This document shows positions 3,161-61,650 of a stretch of DNA of 64,000 nucleotides, piece after piece. Position 1 is the stretch's first letter. Each line of letters opens with the position of its first letter. The notes under the pieces were generated by a model that did no database searches, was not told the origin of the DNA, and saw only the letters and a list, made by a program, of their open reading frames with translations. Origin of the DNA: Eledone cirrhosa (Eukaryota). The stretch lies in assembly GCA_964016885.1 (NCBI GenBank), contig OZ024752.1:7440001-7504000 (forward strand), written 5' to 3'. Made by a program: the position numbers and the translations under genes.

Positions 3161-3409
3161 CATGACTCATCGGAAGAGTTTGTGTCAGCTTGTTTGTAAT
3201 GACTGCAGATATATTGAAGGAAATGGAGAAATATATTATCTCTCTACCTACCTCTCTCTTTCTCTCTCTATTTATCTATCTTTGCCTACCTCTCTCTTTC
3301 TATCTATCTCTCTCTGCCTACCTCTCTCTTTCTATCTTTCTCTCTTTATTTCGCTCTATATCTACCTACCTCTCTCTTTCTTTCCTTATCTATCTATCTC
3401 TCTCTCTCT

Positions 3410-3800
3410 CCGGCCAACAACTAATTCTTTTTTTCAAATACCACTTTGGAAGAAGAATCGGGATGGAGAGAGAGGTGCTGTACCCCAGCAAGTTTTATGA
3501 AAGGTGGGTGAAAGTGGTGAGAATGGCCCGAGTGAATGGGCCTTCTCTCTATATCAGCCTGTAGGTTGAGGAAAAAGAGGAGAGGAAAGGGGTACAAACT
3601 CTTCATACTCCTGGAGATGAGGGTTGCACATTTTTTCGGGGGTATTTGTTACCCATATGAAATTGCTCCCCCTATTGGGGAAAATCGATTAATTTTTAAA
3701 TTGCATTTGTGATAGTATTTTACACATTTTTATTGTATGTAAACTTCCCCCTTTGTGTTTGTCCCCTTCTTTTGTGCCCCTGTGGCTAATAAAGAAACAT
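3410..3800 (+). mobile_element. Possible 5'-truncated L1/Tx1-like LINE 3' end inside (TC)n/(TATC)n microsatellite
   Basis: Peptide ...LILFFKYHFGRRIGMERE...KFYERWVKVVRMARVNG resembles Tx1 ORF2 C-termini; ends ggctaataaagaaa then (atct)n; pyrimidine microsatellite on both sides. Confidence 0.4.
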
Positions 3801-4387
3801 ATCTATCTATCTATCTCTCTCTCTCTGATGATGATTAGTGTAGAATATCTAATAGTGTAAGTTCAAATACACACACGCACACACATACAAATACACGCAC
3901 ACGCACACACGCACACGCACACACATACAAATACACACACACATACATACACAGAACGAAGACATATATTTCGGGACATATATTTTGAAATACCCATTCC
4001 AACTCGATATATATATTTTTTTTTCTCCTGAAGAAGGGCTTATGCCCCCCCCCCCCCCCACTCTCAAGAGCGTGAACCTAATAAACCTTTATTTGTCTGC
4101 CTCTCTGTTTTTGTTCCCGTCCAACTTTTCACTATATATATATATATATATATTTAGAAACACACAGATACATGCGGACACACACATATATACATGAATG
4201 CATCCGCACCCAACTGTGAGTTAAGGGTGCCAACTTCACCGATGTTGCTCAATGAATGACCGGGACAGACCAATTCAGTTTGAACCAGACTGAACCAGTA
4301 TCAGAGTTAAAAATACATTATGAAGAGAGAAGAAACATTTAGATATAATTAGTAATAAAATGTATCATACCTAAACTGTTCCTAAAT

Positions 4388-4475
4388 TCCTCGACTACGT
4401 AGTTTCGTGGCATAAACAAAAACAATATATCAAAGATATAGAGTCCTTGCGAGGTCTGCCGACTTATCAAGAGGA
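4388..4475 (-). ncRNA. Type I hammerhead ribozyme motif (U3-A8 variant), copy 1
   Basis: Minus strand: stem I tcctc/gagga, core TTGATAA, stem II gtcggca...tgccac, GAAA, palindromic stem III actacgtagt, GTC cleavage triplet. Confidence 0.75.
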
Positions 4476-4978
4476 TACCTCATTTTACTAGTCTCAAGAA
4501 CGCGTCTACACGACGTGAGAAAGAATCCCAAAAGGCGGAGGGGGAGATAGTCACGCGATATAACGGTCGAGAAACAGAGCTAAGCCTCTTATAACCACGA
4601 AGAAAATACCACGGAGGCGGAGGGGGTATTCATATCGAGGCCGTAGAAGAGGTAGTGAAGAAGGCGAGAAGTATGAGTAATGGAAGCTTTCCAGTTGTCC
4701 CCACACTTCAAAGATTGCTCGACCAGAGGGAGTTATTAATATATTTAGAAACACACAGATACATGCGGACACACACATATATACATGAATGCATCCGCAC
4801 CCAACTGTGAGTTAAGGGTGCCAACTTCACCGATGTTGCTCAATGAATGACCGGGACAGACCAATTCAGTTTGAACCAGACTGAACCAGTATCAGAGTTA
4901 AAAATACATTATGAAGAGAGAAGAAACATTTAGATATAATTAGTAATAAAATGTATCATACCTAAACTGTTCCTAAAT

Positions 4979-5066
4979 TCCTCGACTACGTAGTTTCGTG
5001 GCATAAACAAAAACAATATATCAAAGATATAGAGTCCTTGCGAGGTCTGCCGACTTATCAAGAGGA
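4979..5066 (-). ncRNA. Type I hammerhead ribozyme motif (U3-A8 variant), copy 2
   Basis: Same sequence as 4388-4475, shifted by 591 bp. Confidence 0.75.
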
Positions 5067-5326
5067 TACCTCATTTTACTAGTCTCAAGAACGCGTCTAC
5101 ACGACGTGAGAAAGAATCCCAAAAGGCGGAGGGGGAGATAGTCACGCGATATAACGGTCGAGAAACAGAGCTAAGCCTCTTATAACCACGAAGAAAATAC
5201 CACGGAGGCGGAGGGGGTATTCATATCGAGGCCGTAGAAGAGGTAGTGAAGAAGGCGAGAAGTATGAGTAATGGAAGCTTTCCAGTTGTCCCCACACTTC
5301 AAAGATTGCTCGACCAGAGGGAGTTA

Positions 5327-5399
<73 letters not shown>

Positions 5400-39203: not shown

Positions 39204-40611
39204 ATTGTAGTACTATAGCGACATGACTGGAACACAGTGGTGTGATATTGTAGTAATATAGAGAGAGACATGACTGGAACACAGTGGTGTGATATTGTAG
39301 TAATATAGAGAGAGACATGACTGGAACACAGTGGTGTGATATTGTAGTAATATAGAGAGAGACAAGACTGGAACACAGTGATGTGATATTGTAGTAATAT
39401 AGAGAGAGACATGACTGGAACACAGTGGTGTGATATTGTAGTAATATAGAGAGAGACAAGACTGGAACACAGTGGTGTGATATTGTAGTAATATAGAGAG
39501 AGACATGACTGGAACACAGTGGTGTGATATTGTAGTAATATAGAGAGAGACATGACTGGAACACAGTGGTGTGATATTGTAGTAATATAGAGAGAGACAT
39601 GACTGGAACACAGTGGTGTGATATTGTAGTAATATAGAGATAGACATGACTGGAACACAGTGGTGTGATATTGTAGTAATATAGAGAGAGACAAGACTGG
39701 AACACAGTGGTGTGATATTGTAGTAATATAGAGAGAGACATGACTGGAACACAGTGGTGTGATATTGTAGTAATATAGAGACATGACTGGAACACAGTGG
39801 TGTGATGTTGTAGTAATATAGAGAGATACAAGACTGTGACACAGTGGTGTGATATTGTAGTAATATAGAGACGGACATGACTGGAACACAGTGGTGTGAT
39901 ATTGTAGTAATATAGAGAGAGACATGACTGGAACACAGTGGTGTGATATTGTAGTAATATAGAGACAGACAAGACTGGAACACAGTGGTGTGATATTGTA
40001 GTAATATAGAGAGAGACAAGACTGGAACACAGTGGTGTGATATTGTAGTAATATAGAGAGAGACAAGACTGGAACACAGTGGTGTGATATTGTAGTAATA
40101 TAGAGAGAGACAAGACTGGAACACAGTGGTGTGATATTGTAGTAATATAGAGAGAGACAAGACTGGAACACAGTGGTGTGATATTGTAGTAATATAGAGA
40201 GAGACAAGACTGGAACACAGTGGTGTGATATTGTAGTAATATAGAGACATGACTGGAACACAGTGGTGTGATATTGTAGTAATATAGAGAGAGACATGAC
40301 TGGAACACAGTGGTGTGATATTGTAGTAATATAGAGAGAGACATGATTGGAACACAGTGGTGTGATATTGTAGTAATATAGAGACAGACAAGACTGGAAC
40401 ACAGTGGTGTGATATTGTAGTAATATAGAGAGAGACATGACTGGAACACAGTGGTGTGATATTGTAGTAATATAGAGAGAGACATGACTGGAACACAGTG
40501 GTGTGATATTGTAGTAATATAGAGAGAGACATGACTGGAACACAGTGGTGTGATATTGTAGTAATATAGAGACATGACTGGAACACAGTGGTGTGATATT
40601 GTAGTAATATA
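39204..40611 (-). repeat. Same satellite in inverted orientation (~30 units)
   Basis: Units read gacatgactggaacacagtggtgtgatattgtagtaatatagag; palindromic junction tactacaat|attgtagta. Confidence 0.97.
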
Positions 40612-40985: not shown

Positions 40986-42220
40986 ATGGGTAGAAATAAC
41001 AGAATTGCCATGGTGATATCCATCGATGAAGTATGCGACAAAACTGGTCGATGTCCAAAAATAGAACATTGCCCGGAAGATCACACCTGCCATATCTGTA
41101 CGGAACCCGAAAACTCGTTCCGTAATCGTTGGGTCGAATGTGGAACCTGTCGCATCTCTGTCTGCCTTCAATGCGCCACAGGCTTCCGGAAGATCCCAGA
41201 CCAAAATAAGAAACATCATATTGCTACGATGGATAGACTCTGGGAGATGGTCCAGCTAACAAACTGGTCCTTTCAGTGCCTGGACTGTATGCCTGCTTCT
41301 CCCATTGCTGCGGAACAACAACAACAACAAAGACCGAAGATCGTGTCTTCTACCATTGTTCCTGAGCAACAACAACAAAAACCGAGGATCGTGTCTTCCT
41401 CTACCATTGTCCCTGAACAACAGCAAAAACCAACGACCGTAGCTTCTGCTACTACCCCTGTTGAAGGACTTCATCAACAACAGCAACCCATGTCTTCCTC
41501 ACCGTTACTTTTCAACAACAACAACTGACGACTGTGTCTTCTACCATGCCTGTTGAAGGAGAAGAACAACAACAAAAACCGACCGTCAATACGGAGTTTG
41601 AGGAAATACGGCCAATGATTTCCGCTTTAAGTCAAGAAATAGCGGAAATAAAATCAAGCGTTCGTGTAGAACCCCACAATGAGGGATCTTACCGGAGTGC
41701 CTTGTTAAAAAATCTCTGCGTACCTCATGTTGAACCTAGACGCATTGAGAATGCCACTGAATCTGCAAACCACGAAGTGATTGCCATTGGTGTGCAGGAA
41801 GACATAGTTGATCTTCAGGCATTTGCTGCCAGCTCATCCAAAGACCTGGGCTGTGCTCCCGCAAAGGGTGTTCTACGCCTTGGCCGGCCAGGCCCGAAAC
41901 CCAGGTTAATTAGACTGTCATTTTCAAACTCAACTGGGGCACGTTCGTACCTTGTAGCCTCTGATAAAGCTAGGCGTGAAAGTCGGATTGCTTTCCAAAC
42001 ACGTCCTGGTCTTCCACCTGATGTCCACCCAAAGTTGCGTGCTGCAGCTTCCCTAAACCGCAGCTCGGCAGAACATGAAAGCTTCAGCCTACGAGATGAT
42101 GGGCAGATATGGAAGTTTGTTAAGGCTGGCGAATCATGGAAAAGAGACACCAGCTGGTCTGAAAACACTGTACCCACAACAACTGACAATAAAGAAACTG
42201 AAAAAACTCTGGGAAACTAA
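40986..42220 (+). pseudogene. LINE ORF1 (PHD-like Cys finger, Q-rich repeats), broken by one frameshift near 41500
   Basis: CxxC..CxxC..CxxC..CxxC spacing; the QQQQ(K/R)P..VSS repeat continues in the 41534-42220 frame; tcttcctcaccg lacks one base relative to the sister repeat tcttcctctacca. Confidence 0.75.
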
Positions 42221-45039
42221 ATCAGAACAACCTGCCATCCCCTGCACATAATCATAGACTGGAATCAAAGTACAAACTGTTGTCCTTGAATGCACGTAGT
42301 CTATGCAATAAGATTCATCTTTTTGACTCCTACGTCAAAAGTATCAACCCGGACTTCATTACAGTCACGGAAACTTGGGCACATCCCTTACTCTGTGATG
42401 GGGTTTTCAGCATGACTGGCTACAACCTGTTTCGTAAAGACCGTATTAATCATCGTGGTGGTGGTGTAATGGTCTACGTTCGGTCAAATCTGTCGGCAAT
42501 TCCTTGTGCTGATTTGAACCAATCACAGCAGGAAGTTTTTTTCTGCGATATACGTATGACCATGTCAACACTGCTACTTGGAGTCATTTACCGTCCCCCA
42601 AATTACCATCAGGACACTCAACTTTGTGATATCCTCAGAGCTGTTGCCAGGAAGACAGCCACTTATGTTTTCATTGCAGGTGACTTCAATCACCCTGAGA
42701 TTGACTGGGAGACCTTTCGTTGGCCGCCAAGTGCAAATGACTTCCTTGAGCTGGTGCTGGAGTCGAGTTGGTCCCAGGTGGTCACCTCCCCAACGAGAGG
42801 TGACAACACTTTGGAGCTACTCTTCACCACTACTCCTGAAACGGTCATTAGTGTTACTGCTGAGGAACCTTTAGGGGACTCTGATCATGCTATGATCATT
42901 GCCAATCTATCCCTCATGGGCAGTAACAAGAACCACAACCATCTCCAAACTGCTCACTTTGACAGGAATAAAGCAGACTGGAACTGTTACTGCACCGAGT
43001 TGCAACGGCCAAACTGGCTTGAGTTCTATGACTCTGGAGATGTCAACACTGTACTCCAGAACATCCTGAGCTCAATATGGACAGCATGTGCAACATCGGT
43101 GCCACGTAAGCGGAAAAAACATCCCAAAAGCGCAATTTGGGAGACTGCAGCAGTCCGTCTTGCCAGAAAAGAACGGCGCAATGCTGAACGTGAGTACAAA
43201 CTTCACAAATCAGACATTAATAGGAAGAGGCGAAATAGATCGTCCAACCACCTCAAACAGGTGACAAAAAAGGCAGTGCTTCAATTTGAGCAGCACATAG
43301 CAACCAGCCCTGACAGTGAGGTGTTCTGGAAGTATGTTCACTCAAAGCAGAGGCCTCACTCTCCAGTTGGTCCTCTTCGCAATCCCCACACAAGCCAGGT
43401 TACTGACAACCCCAAGGAATGCGCAGAGCTCATTGCTGAATGCTATGCAGGCATTTTCACTATTGAAGACCAGAGTGTACCATCTCCACCACCTATGACA
43501 CCGGACTCTATTACAACCATGGAATTTACACCTGCAATGCTGCGACGTCACCTAAAAAATAAACGCAACCATGCCTCTCCTGGTCTTGATGGTGTTACGT
43601 ACCTGCTTCTTAAACGTGGTGGGTACTTCCTTCTACACCAGTTATCACGCTTCTTCCAATTCTGTCTGAACAACAGTGCTACTCCAGAACAGTGGAAAAC
43701 TGCCAGTGTCATTCCTCTGTTCAAAAAGGGTGACCGCACATCACCTGTGAACTATCGTCCAGTCAGTCTTACTAGTTGCATCGCCAAACTGATGGAATCC
43801 TGTGTCAGAGAAACACTTTGGAACTTCTGCAGCTCTCACAGTCTTATCCGGCCCTCGCAATTTGGATTTATCCCCAACTCCAGCTGCTGTGATCAACTTA
43901 TAGAGTTTCTTGAGGACATCACCCGGATCACTGATGGCGGCTCATGGGTGGATGTTGTTTACCTTGACTTTGCGAAGGCCTTCAATTCTGTGCCACACAA
44001 AAGGCTTATGGCAAAACTCTTTGCAATGGGTGTGAAGGATGATCTTTTTAACTGGTTGAAGTCCTTCATTCTCAGTCGAAGAGAGGTAGTCACGGTTCTG
44101 GGACAGCATTCCTCACCATATGAGATGTCATCTGGTGTACCTCAGGGATCTGTTCTTGGCCCCCTTTTGTTTGTGGCATATATTGATGACATAGATGCCA
44201 ACTTAAGGAATGCCACAGTACTAAAGTACGCAGACGACATCAAGCTGTACCTTGAGATAAAAAGGACAGATCCTGAACACTATAGATCTTGCTTGCAGTC
44301 TGACCTGGACACAATGCAACAGTGGATCTCAGACTGGCAACTCAAGCTAGCTGTGGACAAGTGCACCACCATGCATTTTGGGAGTAAAAACCCAGCGTCC
44401 ACATACTCCCTCCACAGCACTAATATCAAGAAGTCTTCCTGTGAACGTGACCTGGGCATTACGGTCAGCAGCGATTTGCGTTGGACGAGGCACGTCTCTA
44501 AAATTGTCAAGAGGGCCGAGGGTGTCTTAGCATCACTCAGCAAGACCTTTGTCAGCCGCTCTGCAGATATCTATTTAAGGCTGTATACAGCTATGGTGCG
44601 ACCACACTTAGAATTTGCATCACCAGTCTGGAACCCCTATCTTGCTCAGGACATTGACCGCCTGGAAACTGTTCAGAGACGTGCAACCAAGCGAATACCC
44701 TCCATCAGGCATCTACCATACTCTGAGCGCCTTGCTTCCCTGGGCATGGATTCATTGAAGCTCCGACGCCTGGCAACTGACTTGGTAAACACCCACAAAA
44801 TTGTTAACCATGTTGCCAACAACAACCCTGAGTACCTTTTCTATTTCCATGTGTCTAACACACGTGGACATGCCCACAAAGTAAGAAAACAGCACAGTTC
44901 CCATGACTTTCGGAAACATTTTTTCACGCTCAGAGTTGCTGAAGCATGGAACAAACTACCTACATCAGTTGTTAGCTGTCGAGACACTGCATCCTTTAAG
45001 GCCTCCATGCTTCCCGAGATCCGCCAACAGAACAGCTAA
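42202..45039 (+). CDS. LINE ORF2: AP endonuclease + reverse transcriptase (open, no upstream ATG)
   Basis: SLNARS, ETW, GDFN, SDH (APE); NYRPVSLTS, YLDFAKAF, GVPQGSVLGPLLF, YADD, ERDLG, CR1-type C-terminus VRPHLEF..VWNP. Confidence 0.92.
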   Translation, partial: KNSGKLNQNNLPSPAHNHRLESKYKLLSLNARSLCNKIHLFDSYVKSINPDFITVTETWAHPLLCDGVFSMTGYNLFRKDRINHRGGGVMVYVRSNLSAIPCADLNQSQQEVFFCDIRMTMSTLLLGVIYRPPNYHQDTQLCDILRAVARKTATYVFIAGDFNHPEIDWETFRWPPSANDFLELVLESSWSQVVTSPTRGDNTLELLFTTTPETVISVTAEEPLGDSDHAMIIANLSLMGSNKNHNHLQTAHFDRNKADWNCYCTELQRPNWLEFYDSGDVNTVLQNILSSIWTACATSVPRKRKKHPKSAIWETAAVRLARKERRNAEREYKLHKSDINRKRRNRSSNHLKQVTKKAVLQFEQHIATSPDSEVFWKYVHSKQRPHSPVGPLRNPHTSQVTDNPKECAELIAECYAGIFTIEDQSVPSPPPMTPDSITTMEFTPAMLRRHLKNKRNHASPGLDGVTYLLLKRGGYFLLHQLSRFFQFCLNNSATPEQWKTASVIPLFKKGDRTSPVNYRPVSLTSCIAKLMESCVRETLWNFCSSHSLIRPSQFGFIPNSSCCDQLIEFLEDITRITDGGSWVDVVYLDFAKAFNSVPHKRLMAKLFAMGVKDDLFNWLKSFILSRREVVTVLGQHSSPYEMSSGVPQGSVLGPLLFVAYIDDIDANLRNATVLKYADDIKLYLEIKRTDPEHYRSCLQSDLDTMQQWISDWQLKLAVDKCTTMHFGSKNPASTYSLHSTNIKKSSCERDLGITVSSDLRWTRHVSKIVKRAEGVLASLSKTFVSRSADIYLRLYTAMVRPHLEFASPVWNPYLAQDIDRLETVQRRATKRIPSIRHLPYSERLASLGMDSLKLRRLATDLVNTHKIVNHVANNNPEYLFYFHVSNTRGHAHKVRKQHSSHDFRKHFFTLRVAEAWNKLPTSVVSCRDTASFKASMLPEIRQQNS

Positions 45040-49830: not shown

Positions 49831-49962
49831 GTGTATGCATAACTACATTTAATTTTGCATGAATGTATATCTGCCTGTAAGTGTGGAGTGTATATACACA
49901 CATACACATAATACAGCCCCCCCTTCACAATTTGTTCTTATCTCGTCTTCTTTCTTACCTAG

Positions 49963-50318
49963 GCGGAAAATATGTCCCACGTGCAATCATGGTTGATTTG
50001 GAACCTGGTACAATGGATTCAGTCCGTTCTGGCCCTTTTGGTCAAATATTCCGACCAGATAACTTTGTCTTTGGACAAAGTGGTGCAGGAAACAACTGGG
50101 CGAAAGGTCACTACACAGAAGGTGCTGAACTTGTAGACTCTGTTTTAGATGTTTTGCGTAAAGAATGTGAAAGTTGCGATTGTCTTCAAGGATTCCAGAT
50201 GACGCACTCACTAGGAGGTGGTACTGGCTCTGGAATGGGTACTTTGCTTATCAGTAAAATTCGAGAAGAGTATCCTGATAGAATCATGAATACTTTTTCA
50301 GTGGTTCCCTCTCCAAAG
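49963..50318 (+). CDS. TUBB: Beta-tubulin, third coding exon
   Basis: tag|GCGGAAAA...CCAAAG|gtaaaa; [16 protein letters not shown]...GGGTGSG...VVPSPK; phase compatible with the previous exon. Confidence 0.97.
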
Positions 50319-50893
50319 GTAAAAATCTTATTTATTTTCAATTTAATCACTAAATCATTTTCCTTTTTTTTTTTTTACAAAATTCTCTTAAAATTATTTC
50401 TCAGATAAATAAAAAAAAAAACTAATGGGTAATCACCAATTTTTATGGTTTATATGTGTGAAATAGTCTTGTAAAAGATGATAAAACCTCTCTCTCTCTC
50501 TCTCTCTTTCTCTCTCTTCATTGGAAGTGTGGTTGTAAATATTTAGTGAAAAACAAAGAAGTGAGATTGATTTAAAAGTACCTGTGCCATACTGGGGCTT
50601 GATTCTTCCTTTATATCTTTTTATCACTTCCTCCCTCTCTCTCTCTCGCTGGCGTCATCACGAAATACTACTAGTGCACTCTGTAAACTGGTTAATGCAA
50701 GGAAGGTTATCCTGCCATAGAATTATGTCAAAAGGGAAACTATGGCTGGGGTGTGAATCACAGACATTTGTTGGAGGGCAATAATACTGAATAAGAACTG
50801 ATTGGGATTGTGATAATCTCTTTAGCTCGTGCCGAATAATGATGATAAAGATAAATAAAGTTTTATTCCTGGACTATCTGGTATATGTTAGCT

Positions 50894-51059
50894 CAGGGTT
50901 TCCCAAACCTTTTCAAACACAGAACCCTTTTGGTTCAGAAACTTTAAGGGGAACCCCAAAGTCTAATACTGTTTTATTGTTGTAATATAGATATACTCCT
51001 CTACCTTTTTACACAGAACGCTAGACACTTGTTTGTGGGACCCACTTTGGGAACCCCTG
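50894..51059. mobile_element. hAT-type MITE (~166 bp)
   Basis: TIRs cagggtttcccaaa / tttgggaacccctg; 8-bp TSD tgttagct / tattagct (7 of 8 match). Confidence 0.75.
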
Positions 51060-51241
51060 TATTAGCTACAATTCAATGAACTATGCAACATCTAGGACAA
51101 ATATCTTCTATATCTTAAGATCAGCTCTAATTTTAACAACAGTACCATCTTGATCTTTGGTGCCTTTTAGCAGAGTCCATCATTTGGAGCAGGTTTTCAG
51201 TATAAAGACAACTCAATATCTTGATTTGTAACTTACTACAG

Positions 51242-51443
51242 TAGTCCTGCCAACCTCTACACACCCAAACAGGGAATACCATGAAAAAAAGTGTTCCAAA
51301 ATGGACAGAAATTTGACAAAATGGGGAGATTTTACTTAACGAAAACTATACCCGTTTTCACAAGAGAAGACATCTCTCACCCTAACCTTAACCCTAAGTG
51401 GGTGGGAGATCTCCCTTTCAGACAGGGAAAGTTGACAAGTCTG
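51242..51443. mobile_element. Possible degenerate MITE
   Basis: Imperfect TIRs tagtcctgccaacc / agttgacaagtctg; ctacag on both flanks. Confidence 0.35.
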
Positions 51444-51670
51444 CTACAGAAATGGTACATGTCTGTTGAAGAGCAGCTTCATTCACCAATGATATAATAT
51501 GGCTGCAGGTTAGCTGTGTAAGGGAGGTAATTGACAGTTAAGATGAGATAATCTTAACCAGAACTGATTGAAGCCATCTTGGTCAATAGTATAGCTAAAG
51601 AAGAAGTTTCACCTTATTGAGTGGAGAGCAGAATAACACTTTAACAGTCTCCTACTACAGCCCCCTACTT

Positions 51671-51748
51671 AATAATAATAATAATGAAATTATTGTGTAC
51701 AGTGCTCAGGTGCACTACAATTCGTCAAAGGTGCATGTATAGTACATA
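51671..51748 (-). mobile_element. 5'-truncated CR1/L2-type LINE 3' end
   Basis: Reverse complement matches 45080-45147. Confidence 0.8.
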
Positions 51749-52023
51749 GTACAGTCCCCTACATAACAGTTTCCTACTACGGCCCCCTACAACTTATGGT
51801 TTCCTACTACAGCAAAGACACAATTGTTCTTGTTTTGTTTTTGTTTTACCTGGGGTAATATCTGATTATATTTCCTACACCTTCTCATTATTTCTATGTC
51901 CTGTTCTCCATGTTGGTATGAGGCAGATAAGACCTTTTCAGTCAATGTTCTAGACTGATGCCTTCTTTCACACCAGTCAAACGACACAACTGTGGCAGGA
52001 ATTTTTTTTGTGTGTCATAAACG

Positions 52024-52208
52024 TCAGTATCAGTAGAGGGTCGGACGCCATGCTTTGTAACATAGAGTTACGTCCCTTTACGTTCTGATTTCAAATCCCG
52101 CCGAGGTTAACTTTGCCTTTCATCCTTACGAGATCAATAAAATTAAGTACCAGTAATGTACTGGGGTAATTGCTGGCCTTGTGCCAAATGTAGAAACAAT
52201 TATTATTC
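52024..52208 (+). mobile_element. SINE family A
   Basis: Same head, core and tail as the other copies. Confidence 0.8.
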
Positions 52209-52251
52209 ACCCAGAAATATTTTTATAATTATGTATATATATATATTTTAA

Positions 52252-53097
<846 letters not shown>

Positions 53098-59524: not shown

Positions 59525-61650
59525 TCACGGAGGTTTGAATCTTATGAATTTAGTGGCAATTCTATGTCTGCAGAAGATAGATCTTTCTAACTTATTGTTA
59601 AGTAGCCTTTTTACATTTTTGAGGATATACAATAGCTCAAGATCACATAGCCCGCAGTGGGACATCCCTGTACTATAGGTTTTAGCAGCCGACAACTTCA
59701 ACCAGTTGATACTGTAGTTAGTGTTGCTGTCCTTCAATTCCCATATTTTTTTGGCGAGGGTTGTGGAACCCATAAGTGCACGGTTTTTCATTGAGTGTCT
59801 GTGTGCACATACCATCTTTTTTTAAAAGAACCCGCGGTGAATCCTATGTAATTCCAGGTGGAGTTACCCGAGATGACCGTGCACATGTACACCAGGCTCG
59901 AATCGAGACATCTGTTCGCCAATGGGCACCTATCTCGTAGGTGACAGTTACAGTTTGAGGCGCTATTTTGTGCAGCTTTTACATTCCTGTTTAGTACTCT
60001 GTTATAAGTGGGTTGTGATATATGCCCAATGGGGTTTTGCTGCTGCGCGTTTGTATGCGCTTGTGGTTGTGATGTTGTGATGTGTTTGTGCTTATATATA
60101 GGTGCAGTTGATTTACTAGAGATATTTCTGTGGTTGATCTTACGTATCTGTGATTCTATGTTAGCTGCTGATGAGAATGAGAGTTTTATAGTAGATCTAT
60201 TGAGTATTTTGTGATACCTATGCGAGATAGGGAAGTGTTTATCTATTAGTTTAAAGAATGTAGAGGGCAGTCTAGTTTTTATAGAGGAGTTGAATATTGG
60301 GTTGAACCATAGGTATTTTCTTTGTCTGTTTCTTCTATTGTTTCTTGGGTTTACGTTATTAGTGTTTTGGCCGTTTACTCCAGGTGCTACGTGCCTAACC
60401 CTATGTCTAGTTAAGCTATTCCTATTATTATGTGAGCGGTTGGAGTAGTAATTACTAGGATTGTTTACGTTGTCCTTATTCACTATATACTGTAGTTTAT
60501 CTTTATGACCGGCCCTACCTAATGCTGCATTATAATAGTCAGCATGCTCGTTAAAGATTTCTAGGTTTGAGGATAAGCGGGATATACTACGTGCTATGGA
60601 TCTAATTATGGATTTGGGGTGATTTGAGTTGTAACTAATGTAGGCAAGATTTTCATTATTTTTGTGGAAAGGTTCTATTAATCCAGTATTTAGATTTAGA
60701 GTCACATCTAGAAAATTTACCTTCTTATGGTTTAGTTCGTAGGTAATACTTAGGCCTAGTTTTTTGAATAATATTCTAATATTTTTTCTTAGTCTTTCCA
60801 TGCTCTGGTTGTTTAGGTTCCTAGCTATAAGTAACGTGTCGTCCCTATAAATTCCTCCTTGGAGGTTACTGAATTCCTTATGTAGGTTGTGTGCTATGAA
60901 TAGCCCCACGATATCTGTGATTTGCGCAGAATCATTTGATCCCATTGTTATATCGAAGCTATTTATTCTATCCTTTCTTACCCAGTAGCTATTTTCAAAT
61001 TTTATGATAGTCCTTCTAGCCGCTATTATTATTTCAATTTCATCATGGGTAAGATCAGAGTTATTTTGGGCAAATATAAGCGCCTTATCTAAGGTAGCTG
61101 GGGATATGGATGCATAATAGTCGTCTATATCAAATTGTATGAAGTTACACGTCTCCCTATTTTGAATTTTATTGAACCATTTAATTGCCTCGTTAGTGTT
61201 GCCCCATAAATTGATTTCTAGTTTACCCTTTATTTGTGCGATTACCCTATCTAGAATGTTCTTGCTAATTTTACCTATGTCTGACTTGGATGGGCATATT
61301 AATCTAATGGTGGGATTAGTTTCAAAGTTATTTTTGTGATCCTTCAGGTTAAATGTTGGGTTGCACGGGGTTAGCGGTTCGGTCCTATCTGGAATTCCGA
61401 GTTTATTAACTATCTTGAGGCCCTCCATGTTAATGCCGGTGAGTGTAGATTCATTTGTTTTTTTATATTTTTTATGTAGTTCACGCTGAATAAAGTTATT
61501 GTATGTGTTAATGTCCATAGAGTATACGTTTGATGTTTGTCTGCTTTTACTATGATACCGTTAGTGTCTTTTAGTTTTTTAAGTAATGTATTTAAGTCAT
61601 TTTGCAATTTGTTGTGATTTATTCCTTTTTTAAATTTAGTTTCACTTATC
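59525..61650 (-). pseudogene. Penelope RT + GIY-YIG endonuclease (frameshifts near 61520 and 59800)
   Basis: VKADK, LKDHK..PTIRLI, FDIDDYYASI, FDITMGS, YRDD, VNFLDVTL, SNHP, CNC..CPL..C, LVY...YIGFT..FKKRW, CGLCDLE, CRH. Confidence 0.9.

What the first reader, a model, noticed from the sequence alone, without database searches (positions are those of the whole stretch)
4151..5331. Perfect 591-bp head-to-tail dimer with a hammerhead in each unit (retrozyme / circRNA candidate)
Seen: two apparently identical non-coding units joined by a short atat, bounded by (TA)n, each with a minus-strand hammerhead whose stem III is the palindrome actacgtagt. Known: palindromic stem III allows dimeric folding, and tandem hammerheads release monomers that can circularise. 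Inference: a minus-strand transcript would excise a 591-nt monomer (about 4393-4983); identity suggests recent activity.
Basis: partly seen in the sequence, partly recalled or inferred. Interest (0 to 1): 0.75.

Follow-up and report, generated by a model that had tools for sequence, protein, structure and literature searches.

The report
Young hammerhead retrozyme, Penelope-type insertions
This perfect repeat pair is one of thousands of recent copies of a small non-coding jumping element that carries a predicted self-cutting RNA; the class is known, but the way its copies begin, end and share mutations suggests that a Penelope-type enzyme likely copies one RNA unit, probably a circle, from two fixed start points at once.

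Summary
Confirmed: 597 identical bases at a period of 591, with one minus-strand type I hammerhead per unit (U3-A8 core, palindromic stem III). The predicted monomer is 4983-4393. It is no assembly duplication: the hammerhead 18-mer occurs 7,696 times in the genome, at roughly 3,700 (TA)n-embedded loci. Copies do not end at the ribozyme cut. They start at two fixed sites, 80 and 245 nt downstream of it. In 70 of 70 two-armed insertions from samples not chosen for likeness, one arm starts at each site. Both arms and all units share one haplotype (0.65% apart, against 2.9% between loci), and 172 of 193 arms read through the cut site. A co-resident Neptune-type Penelope element shows the same marks and is a candidate helper. 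Verdict: a new member of the animal non-LTR retrozymes, moved by Penelope-type machinery (about 0.88). A circular template is inferred (about 0.6). Cleavage and expression are untested. The scan noted this family before on another piece of this genome, and similar families in other genomes.

The parts
4148..5335 (-). Whole insertion: one arm of 2.0 units, RNA sense on the minus strand
   Evidence: L001
4151..4741 (-). Unit 1 (591 nt; unit position 1 = window 4151); non-coding, stops in all six frames
4742..5332 (-). Unit 2, identical to unit 1
4388..4475 (-). Type I hammerhead 1: U3-A8 core, bulged stem II with long loop, palindromic stem III; predicted cut after C at 4393
   Evidence: conserved in source copies
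4979..5066 (-). Type I hammerhead 2; predicted cut after C at 4984
4393..4983 (-). Predicted 591-nt monomer RNA (cut to cut), candidate circle
   Evidence: prediction only
4146..4162 (-). 'Long' start site (unit 587-590, 245 nt 3' of the cut on the RNA), used as the fixed end of this insertion; internal copies near 4739 and 5330
4305..4326 (-). 'Short' start site (unit 163 = window 4313, 80 nt 3' of the cut); internal here, a fixed end in 2,570 other copies; second copy at 4904
   Evidence: loose end with TA run at 4904 in run X2
4739..4903 (-). 165-nt 'tail' between the two start sites, the equivalent of the Penelope pLTR tail
   Evidence: comparison with PMC11167929
4133..4154 (.). Left (TA)n target, itself the tail of an older repeat end
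5330..5396 (.). Right (TA)n target; the copy stops where the unit's own ATATAT matches it

Best explanation
This is a young, high-copy, non-coding hammerhead-bearing repeat (an animal non-LTR retrozyme) whose copies sit in (TA)n, start at two fixed sites and share one haplotype per insertion, and it is likely copied in trans by a Penelope-like reverse transcriptase/GIY-YIG endonuclease, probably from one RNA circle. Shown: the anatomy, copy number, the two fixed ends, the one-short-one-long rule, haplotype sharing and read-through of the cut site. Inferred steps: (1) a minus-strand transcript across two hammerheads is cut to a 591-nt monomer, probably through the dimeric fold, and ligated to a circle (about 0.6); (2) a Penelope-type dimer nicks both strands of (TA)n, each 3' end pairs for a few bases with an AU-rich site and primes cDNA, one at each site of the same RNA (about 0.75); (3) both cDNAs run for 0.1 to more than 4 laps and join head to head, or one arm alone is closed by TA microhomology, as in this window; (4) the helper may be the co-resident Neptune-type family (about 0.45).
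For: Ends: 2,570 TA-joined ends at unit 163 and 797 + 1,041 at unit 587-590 (controls 2, 2 and 31). Rule: 70 of 70 two-armed insertions with both ends typed in sets B, C and D have one arm from each site (68 independent; none has two alike). In the similarity-chosen set A it is 20 of 21. One template: units within an arm differ by 0.65%, opposite arms by 0.65%, different insertions by 2.9%; there are 21 haplotypes among 26 insertions with two or more full units. Not a cut linear monomer: 172 of 193 arms pass the cut site, and 3 of 193 end within 239-246 (2.6 expected). Primer pairing: position 166 is T in 23 of 124 terminal units and in 0 of 259 internal units. Ribozyme under selection: inherited variants at 2 of 43 hammerhead sites against 88 of 514 elsewhere (p 0.03 without the hammerhead-ascertained set), while post-insertion variants are not depleted. 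Same marks in a Neptune-type element with a 938-aa stop-free RT + GIY-YIG frame: U3-A8 hammerhead (11,539 matches), ends 82 and 150 nt after its cut, and one tailed plus one untailed arm in 4 of 4 and 19 of 20 pairs. In print: internal initiation at two sites that define the tail, cleavage and extension of both strands, and a predicted dimer for a Poseidon element (PMC11167929); circles for coral, mussel and axolotl retrozymes (PMC7229834).
Against: No cleavage, RNA or circle is shown for this family. In PMC11167929 the hammerhead was dispensable for insertion in vitro, uncut RNA was the main template, initiation was not homologous to the target, and start sites did not differ between strands. 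A long uncut read-through RNA from a homogeneous array would give the same uniform arms, and L031 (about 12 units with period-2 variant patterns) shows that arrays can also grow at the DNA level. In bioRxiv 10.64898/2026.07.22.740005 only 1 of 9 predicted Xenopus retrozyme dimers cleaved. The hammerhead conservation is not significant in sets C and D alone (2 of 43 against 69 of 514, p 0.15; fixed-to-private contrast p 0.04). The unit shares no alignable sequence with the Neptune pLTR, and the likeness of their end motifs did not beat shuffles. Stem III alone is not predicted stable (0.0 kcal/mol) and the active fold lies 8 kcal/mol above the circle's minimum.
Confidence: 0.8

Rival explanations
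1. Non-autonomous Penelope-type element copied from long, uncut, linear read-through transcripts of tandem source arrays. The hammerhead serves some other role (5' processing, protein binding) and no circle is the template.
For: PMC11167929: uncut RNA was the dominant substrate and hammerhead mutants inserted normally. Most arms are short (median 511 nt; 16 of 193 exceed two units). L031 shows DNA-level array growth. Young source arrays would be nearly homogeneous.
Against: Each round of copying from a linear source can only shorten an array, yet 21 haplotypes are each spread over all units of their insertion. 1,197 pairs of insertions share two or more all-unit variants. Only 28 pairs share two or more single-unit variants; 25 of those depend on an indel-alignment artefact at 125-129 (checked) or on the primer base 166, leaving 3.
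Confidence: 0.3
2. Same-molecule template jumping: the enzyme copies a cut linear monomer and jumps back to its 3' end, a functional circle without ligation.
For: It would also give uniform multimers, and it needs no host ligase.
Against: Arms cross the cut site 246 times with no excess of ends there (3 against 2.6 expected). The ribozyme 3' half is intact across the junction in the common variants (these rows were anchored on the 14-mer up to the cut, so the test is partial).
Confidence: 0.08
3. Local tandem duplication, satellite or assembly duplication with a chance hammerhead-like motif.
For: Perfect identity of the two units; no Rfam hit.
Against: Dispersed family on many chromosomes with fixed ends and locus-specific haplotypes. 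The head-to-tail junction also stands in unit-length contigs of other runs (621 and 620 nt). The ribozyme is depleted of inherited variants.
Confidence: 0.02

Closest known systems
Animal non-LTR retrozymes (Cervera and de la Pena 2020, PMC7229834: parts 2-4 of 6 read, supplement not readable; Li, Clavereau and Pollet 2026, bioRxiv 10.64898/2026.07.22.740005: parts 1-3 of 5 read, supplements not seen)
   Same: Non-coding head-to-tail units, one type I hammerhead each, GC below 50%, thousands of copies, monomers to multimers, no LTR, a short palindromic stem III, and co-existence with Penelope-like elements. The length lies inside the 51-972 bp range of the 2026 preprint.
   Different: Longer than the 170-400 nt invertebrate examples tested in 2020. 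U3-A8 core and a long hairpin loop II. The parts read describe no fixed ends, inverted arms or (TA)n targeting for retrozymes; the link to Penelope elements there rests on co-occurrence and pLTR homology. Here no pLTR homology was found, but the insertion marks match.
Endonuclease-bearing Penelope-like elements: Poseidon PAc (Frangieh et al. 2024, PMC11167929: parts 1-3 of 4 read); Neptune and Naiad (Craig et al. 2021, PMC8557442: passages); Adineta Penelope (PMC3846280: passages)
   Same: Internal start of reverse transcription at two sites a 'tail' apart, 5' truncation, tandem and inverted copies, the tail on one of the inverted ends, insertion into microsatellites, and a hammerhead a short way upstream of the start sites.
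   Different: No ORF. The tail is 165 nt rather than 30-40. The start sites pair with the (TA)n primer, whereas PAc initiation was reported as non-homologous. The one-short-one-long pairing is counted here (70 of 70) and tied to a shared haplotype; the passages read state it only qualitatively.
[quoted passage not shown]
   Same: U3-A8 covariation (Schistosoma Cercyon); bulged helix II and small palindromic helix III (Drosophila virilis type); dimeric folding proposed; circular templates proposed to explain tandems.
   Different: Here the ribozyme lies in a protein-free 591-nt unit. U3-A8 activity was not assayed in the parts read.
Non-autonomous Chlamys elements such as MRC1 (PMC8557442, one passage)
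   Same: Non-coding Penelope dependants that form multicopy head-to-tail insertions.
   Different: Those resemble their autonomous partners at the 3' end, and most Chlamys elements lack canonical hammerheads.

Membership tests
Animal non-LTR retrozyme | Head-to-tail non-coding units, each with a type I hammerhead | tested here: met
   no Rfam support
Animal non-LTR retrozyme | Dispersed multicopy family, monomers to multimers, no LTR | tested here: met
   PBS and PPT were not searched
Animal non-LTR retrozyme | Stable, self-paired monomer RNA on the ribozyme strand | tested here: met
   z -5.7 and -5.8 on the minus strand, -0.8 on the plus strand; 62% paired; prediction only
Animal non-LTR retrozyme | Self-cleavage | not testable with these tools
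   Core and helices intact and depleted of inherited variants; no assay
Animal non-LTR retrozyme | Expression as linear and circular monomer RNA | tested here: inconclusive
   Contigs of unknown run type cannot show RNA or a circle
Animal non-LTR retrozyme | Target-site duplication, when present | tested here: inconclusive
   Masked by (TA)n on both sides
Penelope-like element (insertion type) | Two fixed 3' ends a tail apart; variable 5' ends; tandem and inverted copies | tested here: met
Penelope-like element (insertion type) | Insertion into microsatellites or AT-rich DNA | tested here: met
   fixed ends joined to (TA)n in set B, which was not chosen for its flanks; 41 of 55 single-arm variable ends are followed by a TA run
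Autonomous Penelope-like element | RT + GIY-YIG ORF | tested here: not met
   Unit is non-coding; no such ORF is continuous with a unit in 46 loci. Not filed as autonomous.
Solo pLTR of a resident Penelope element | Sequence homology to the pLTR of an autonomous element | tested here: inconclusive
   None among 50 GIY-YIG loci out of 10,596 candidates; the output was cut at 5,000 characters, best hits first, and showed only a nested copy in L122

The most novel reading that the evidence does not exclude
A Penelope-type RT/endonuclease dimer grips one covalently closed 591-nt hammerhead RNA at two fixed sites, primes both nicked strands of (TA)n at once, and rolls both cDNAs round the same circle. 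Thousands of genomic insertions then record rolling-circle reverse transcription of a viroid-like RNA, and the co-resident Neptune family, which shares no sequence with it, is the helper.
Probability: 0.5. Interest if true: 0.75.

Novelty: new member of a known kind. Interest (0 to 1): 0.56.

Why it matters
How animal retrozymes move, and how Penelope elements make their tandem, inverted and tailed insertions, are both stated as open in the papers read (PMC7229834, PMC8557442, PMC11167929). This family gives a 591-nt protein-free substrate with two mapped start sites, a strict pairing rule, a candidate helper protein and thousands of natural products. That makes the circle-template and dimer models directly testable in vitro. 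If true, it also shows a natural way to write multimeric DNA from a small RNA circle. The element class itself is known.

Tried and rejected
Rfam: no hammerhead match. My strict regex missed this ribozyme because of the stem II bulge. Public runs: no RNA holder listed; whether runs X1-X6 are RNA or DNA remains open, so the unit-length contigs are not used as evidence of a circle. A-to-I editing of the RNA intermediate: inherited variants showed A>G over U>C on the ribozyme strand (39 against 27 distinct, rate ratio 2.4, p 0.0005), but the asymmetry was lost when only rare, safely polarised variants were counted (14 against 15, ratio 1.6, p 0.25; 6 against 8 for singletons). It is not claimed. 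End-motif likeness between the unit and the Neptune pLTR: not above shuffles (806 and 91 of 1000). Only the likeness between the unit's own two sites passed (7 of 1000, one of five comparisons). Chimeric retrozyme-Neptune insertions as proof of a shared enzyme: L067 is a complete small Neptune insertion abutting a truncated arm; none was seen in 80 further loci; one contig end in run X6 is suggestive only. Shared single-unit variants at 125-129 proved to be an alignment artefact. The first long-end pattern was out of phase with pure (TA)n and was completed. The window's own Penelope-like frame (59788-61560) has no Pfam match and was not pursued as helper. Literature: searches listed no paper that, by title or abstract start, describes this family or a two-start-site rule for retrozymes; most subscription journals, Repbase and Dfam are not covered, and the supplements of the two retrozyme papers were not seen.

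Full report
Observation. The window holds 597 identical bases at lag 591 (4148-4744 = 4739-5335) between (TA)n runs. All six frames are closed. On the minus strand each unit fits a type I hammerhead: stem I of 5 bp, core UUGAUAA (U3-A8), stem II with a bulged C and a long hairpin loop, GAAA, stem III of 3 bp closed by ACGU inside the palindrome ACUACGUAGU, and GUC with C17 at 4393 and 4984. The palindrome alone does not fold (0.0 kcal/mol) but pairs with a second copy (-12.9), so dimeric folding is plausible. The cut-to-cut monomer folds at z -5.7. As a circle it folds at z -5.8 against -0.8 for the opposite strand, and the active ribozyme fold lies 8 kcal/mol above the minimum. Rfam does not detect it. 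The U3-A8 covariation is described for Schistosoma Penelope elements (PMC4209133, parts 1-2 read).

Family. G000 is a 3.0-Gb animal assembly. A DNA search scored 40 of 292 candidates and returned 143 matches, the full-length ones at 98-100% identity, on many chromosomes. The exact 18-mer of the ribozyme's 3' half occurs 7,696 times (control 0). The first 100 matches fall in 48 clusters by my count, which extrapolates to roughly 3,700 loci. I analysed 165 loci. Set A has 39 loci most like the window (11 of the 30 loci were left out as overlapping others). Set B has 46 consecutive loci. Set C has 60 loci taken by a short-site end and set D 20 taken by a long-site end. Median divergence from the family majority is 1.1%; 79 of 163 insertions are under 1% and 8 are over 5%.

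Ends. Insertions have one fixed and one variable side. The fixed side is the 3' side of the ribozyme-strand RNA and lies at unit 163 ('short', 80 nt after the cut) or unit 587-590 ('long', 245 nt after it). Genome-wide, exact TA-joined ends number 2,570 short and 797 + 1,041 long. Of 169 insertion blocks, 90 have two opposite arms with one short and one long outer end, 1 has two short ends, 67 have one arm, 8 are unresolved and 3 touch a locus edge. In sets B, C and D the count is 22 + 37 + 11 = 70 of 70, two of which are duplicated copies. None has two alike. Free choice at the genome-wide ratio would give about 49% mixed, so 21 of 21 independent cases in the unascertained set B has a chance near 3 in 10 million (my arithmetic). 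The one short-short case (L033, set A) shares its inner junction with a neighbouring block and looks like a later duplication. Inner junctions mostly overlap by 0-5 bases (50 of 73). Position 166 reads T in 23 of 124 terminal units and in 0 of 259 internal ones, as expected if the (TA)n primer pairs with the RNA across a G-T wobble. Single arms end on TA or AT more often than chance (19 of 55 against 17%, p 0.002). That explains why this copy is a 'perfect dimer': it started at the long site and stopped two laps later on the same ATATAT.

Template. Units within an arm differ by 0.65%, opposite arms of one insertion by 0.65%, and different insertions by 2.9% (101, 89 and 30,413 pairs). There are 21 haplotypes among 26 insertions with two or more full units, and in set A they nest stepwise. 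So each insertion was copied from one unit sequence, repeatedly. A cut linear monomer is excluded as the usual template: 172 of 193 arms pass the cut site (246 crossings), 80 are longer than one unit, and 3 end at 239-246 against 2.6 expected. A circle or an uncut multimer remain. For the circle: single-unit differences are almost never inherited (3 pairs remain of 28 after removing an indel artefact and the primer base, against 1,197 pairs sharing all-unit variants), and the ribozyme is conserved in source copies (2 of 43 sites against 127 of 514 in all sets, p 0.001; 88 of 514 without set B, p 0.03; 69 of 514 in sets C and D, p 0.15; post-insertion variants not depleted). Against it: uncut RNA was the main template for Poseidon PAc in vitro (PMC11167929), young source arrays would be homogeneous anyway, and L031 grew to about 12 units by DNA-level duplication. 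I put the circle at about 0.6.

Helper. A GIY-YIG search gave 10,596 candidates (150 scored). Among 50 loci fetched, none showed homology to the unit except a nested copy. One family stands out (L127): a 938-aa stop-free RT + GIY-YIG frame with a CxxxxCxxC linker, which I read as Neptune from the description in PMC8557442 (no tree was built). Its 5' part is frameshifted in this copy. It carries a U3-A8 hammerhead (11,539 exact matches), inserts in (TA)n, and ends 82 or 150 nt after its cut. Inverted copies have one tailed and one untailed arm in 4 of 4 and 19 of 20 further pairs (16 by script, one of them cut short before the short site; 3 read by eye; 1 long-long pair 3.5 kb apart). These marks show the same kind of machinery. 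They do not prove that this family is the helper: the end motifs do not align better than shuffles, no clean chimeric insertion was found in G000, and other Penelope families are present.

Public runs. Six runs under four organism codes hold 83-97% of the unit's words. In X1 and X5 the unit is a single contig of 621 and 620 nt, one unit plus 30, at depth about 8. In X2 it is split over 1,524 contigs at very high depth, with TA-run loose ends at 4739 and 4904, the two start sites. This confirms the head-to-tail joint and both ends in other data, but the run types are not on record, so it says nothing on expression.

Comparison. It works like a Penelope-type insertion and is a member, by the features testable here, of the animal non-LTR retrozymes (PMC7229834; bioRxiv 10.64898/2026.07.22.740005, lengths 51-972 bp). 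Both papers propose Penelope mobilisation and rolling-circle copying. PMC11167929 shows two internal start sites that define the tail, extension of both strands and a predicted dimer. PMC3846280 and PMC8557442 note the tail on one of the inverted ends. In the parts I read, none counts the pairing or ties both arms to one template, and none does so for a retrozyme (searches; supplements unseen). Earlier notes of this scan reached the same reading for this family on another piece of the genome and for other families. I saw them after and do not count them as support.

Verdict. Real, recent and a new member of a known kind, with insertion marks that make two open mechanistic questions testable. 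Interest 0.56.

Noticed in passing
window 3990-4133 (+): 3' end of another repeat family, with a CUGAAGA box at about 4029 and an AATAAA, whose (TA)n tail is the target of this insertion; 2,072 candidates in G000, the 40 scored at 93-99%. Likely a Penelope-type end (inferred).
   Followed up: partly
window 14596 (+): A second U3-A8 minimal hammerhead-like motif with the same CCGG-UA stem III as the Neptune family but a different stem II.
   Followed up: no
window 15212-46289: A 47-bp satellite of more than 500 copies, with an inverted block at 39220-40611 and a LINE insertion (945-aa endonuclease + RT frame at 42202-45039).
   Followed up: no
window 59788-61560 (-): 590-aa frame that looks like a Penelope-type RT and endonuclease remnant by recalled motifs; no Pfam match.
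   Followed up: partly
window 49881-53097 (+): Beta-tubulin exons, named from the translation by recall.
   Followed up: no
window 3420-3810 (+): 3' end of a LINE: the frame at 3166-3564 ends like a long ORF in L131.
   Followed up: no
L031 (G000:C3:51373400-51382900), L033, L063, L205: Post-insertion duplication: a 12-unit arm with period-2 variant patterns, and whole two-armed insertions repeated in tandem.
   Followed up: partly
run X6, loose end at window 4444: A contig joins the retrozyme to the Neptune 3' end in inverted orientation: possibly an insertion whose two arms came from different RNAs.
   Followed up: partly
runs X1-X6: Four organism codes hold a nearly identical unit; in two it is a single unbranched unit-length contig at low depth. 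Close relatives, trace DNA or a free RNA cannot be told apart.
   Followed up: partly
family-wide variants: Inherited variants are richer in A>G plus U>C changes (29 of 62 rare ones) than post-insertion variants (80 of 344); unexplained.
   Followed up: partly
73 two-armed insertions: The lengths of the two arms are negatively correlated (rho -0.31, p 0.007); this may reflect sampling.
   Followed up: no
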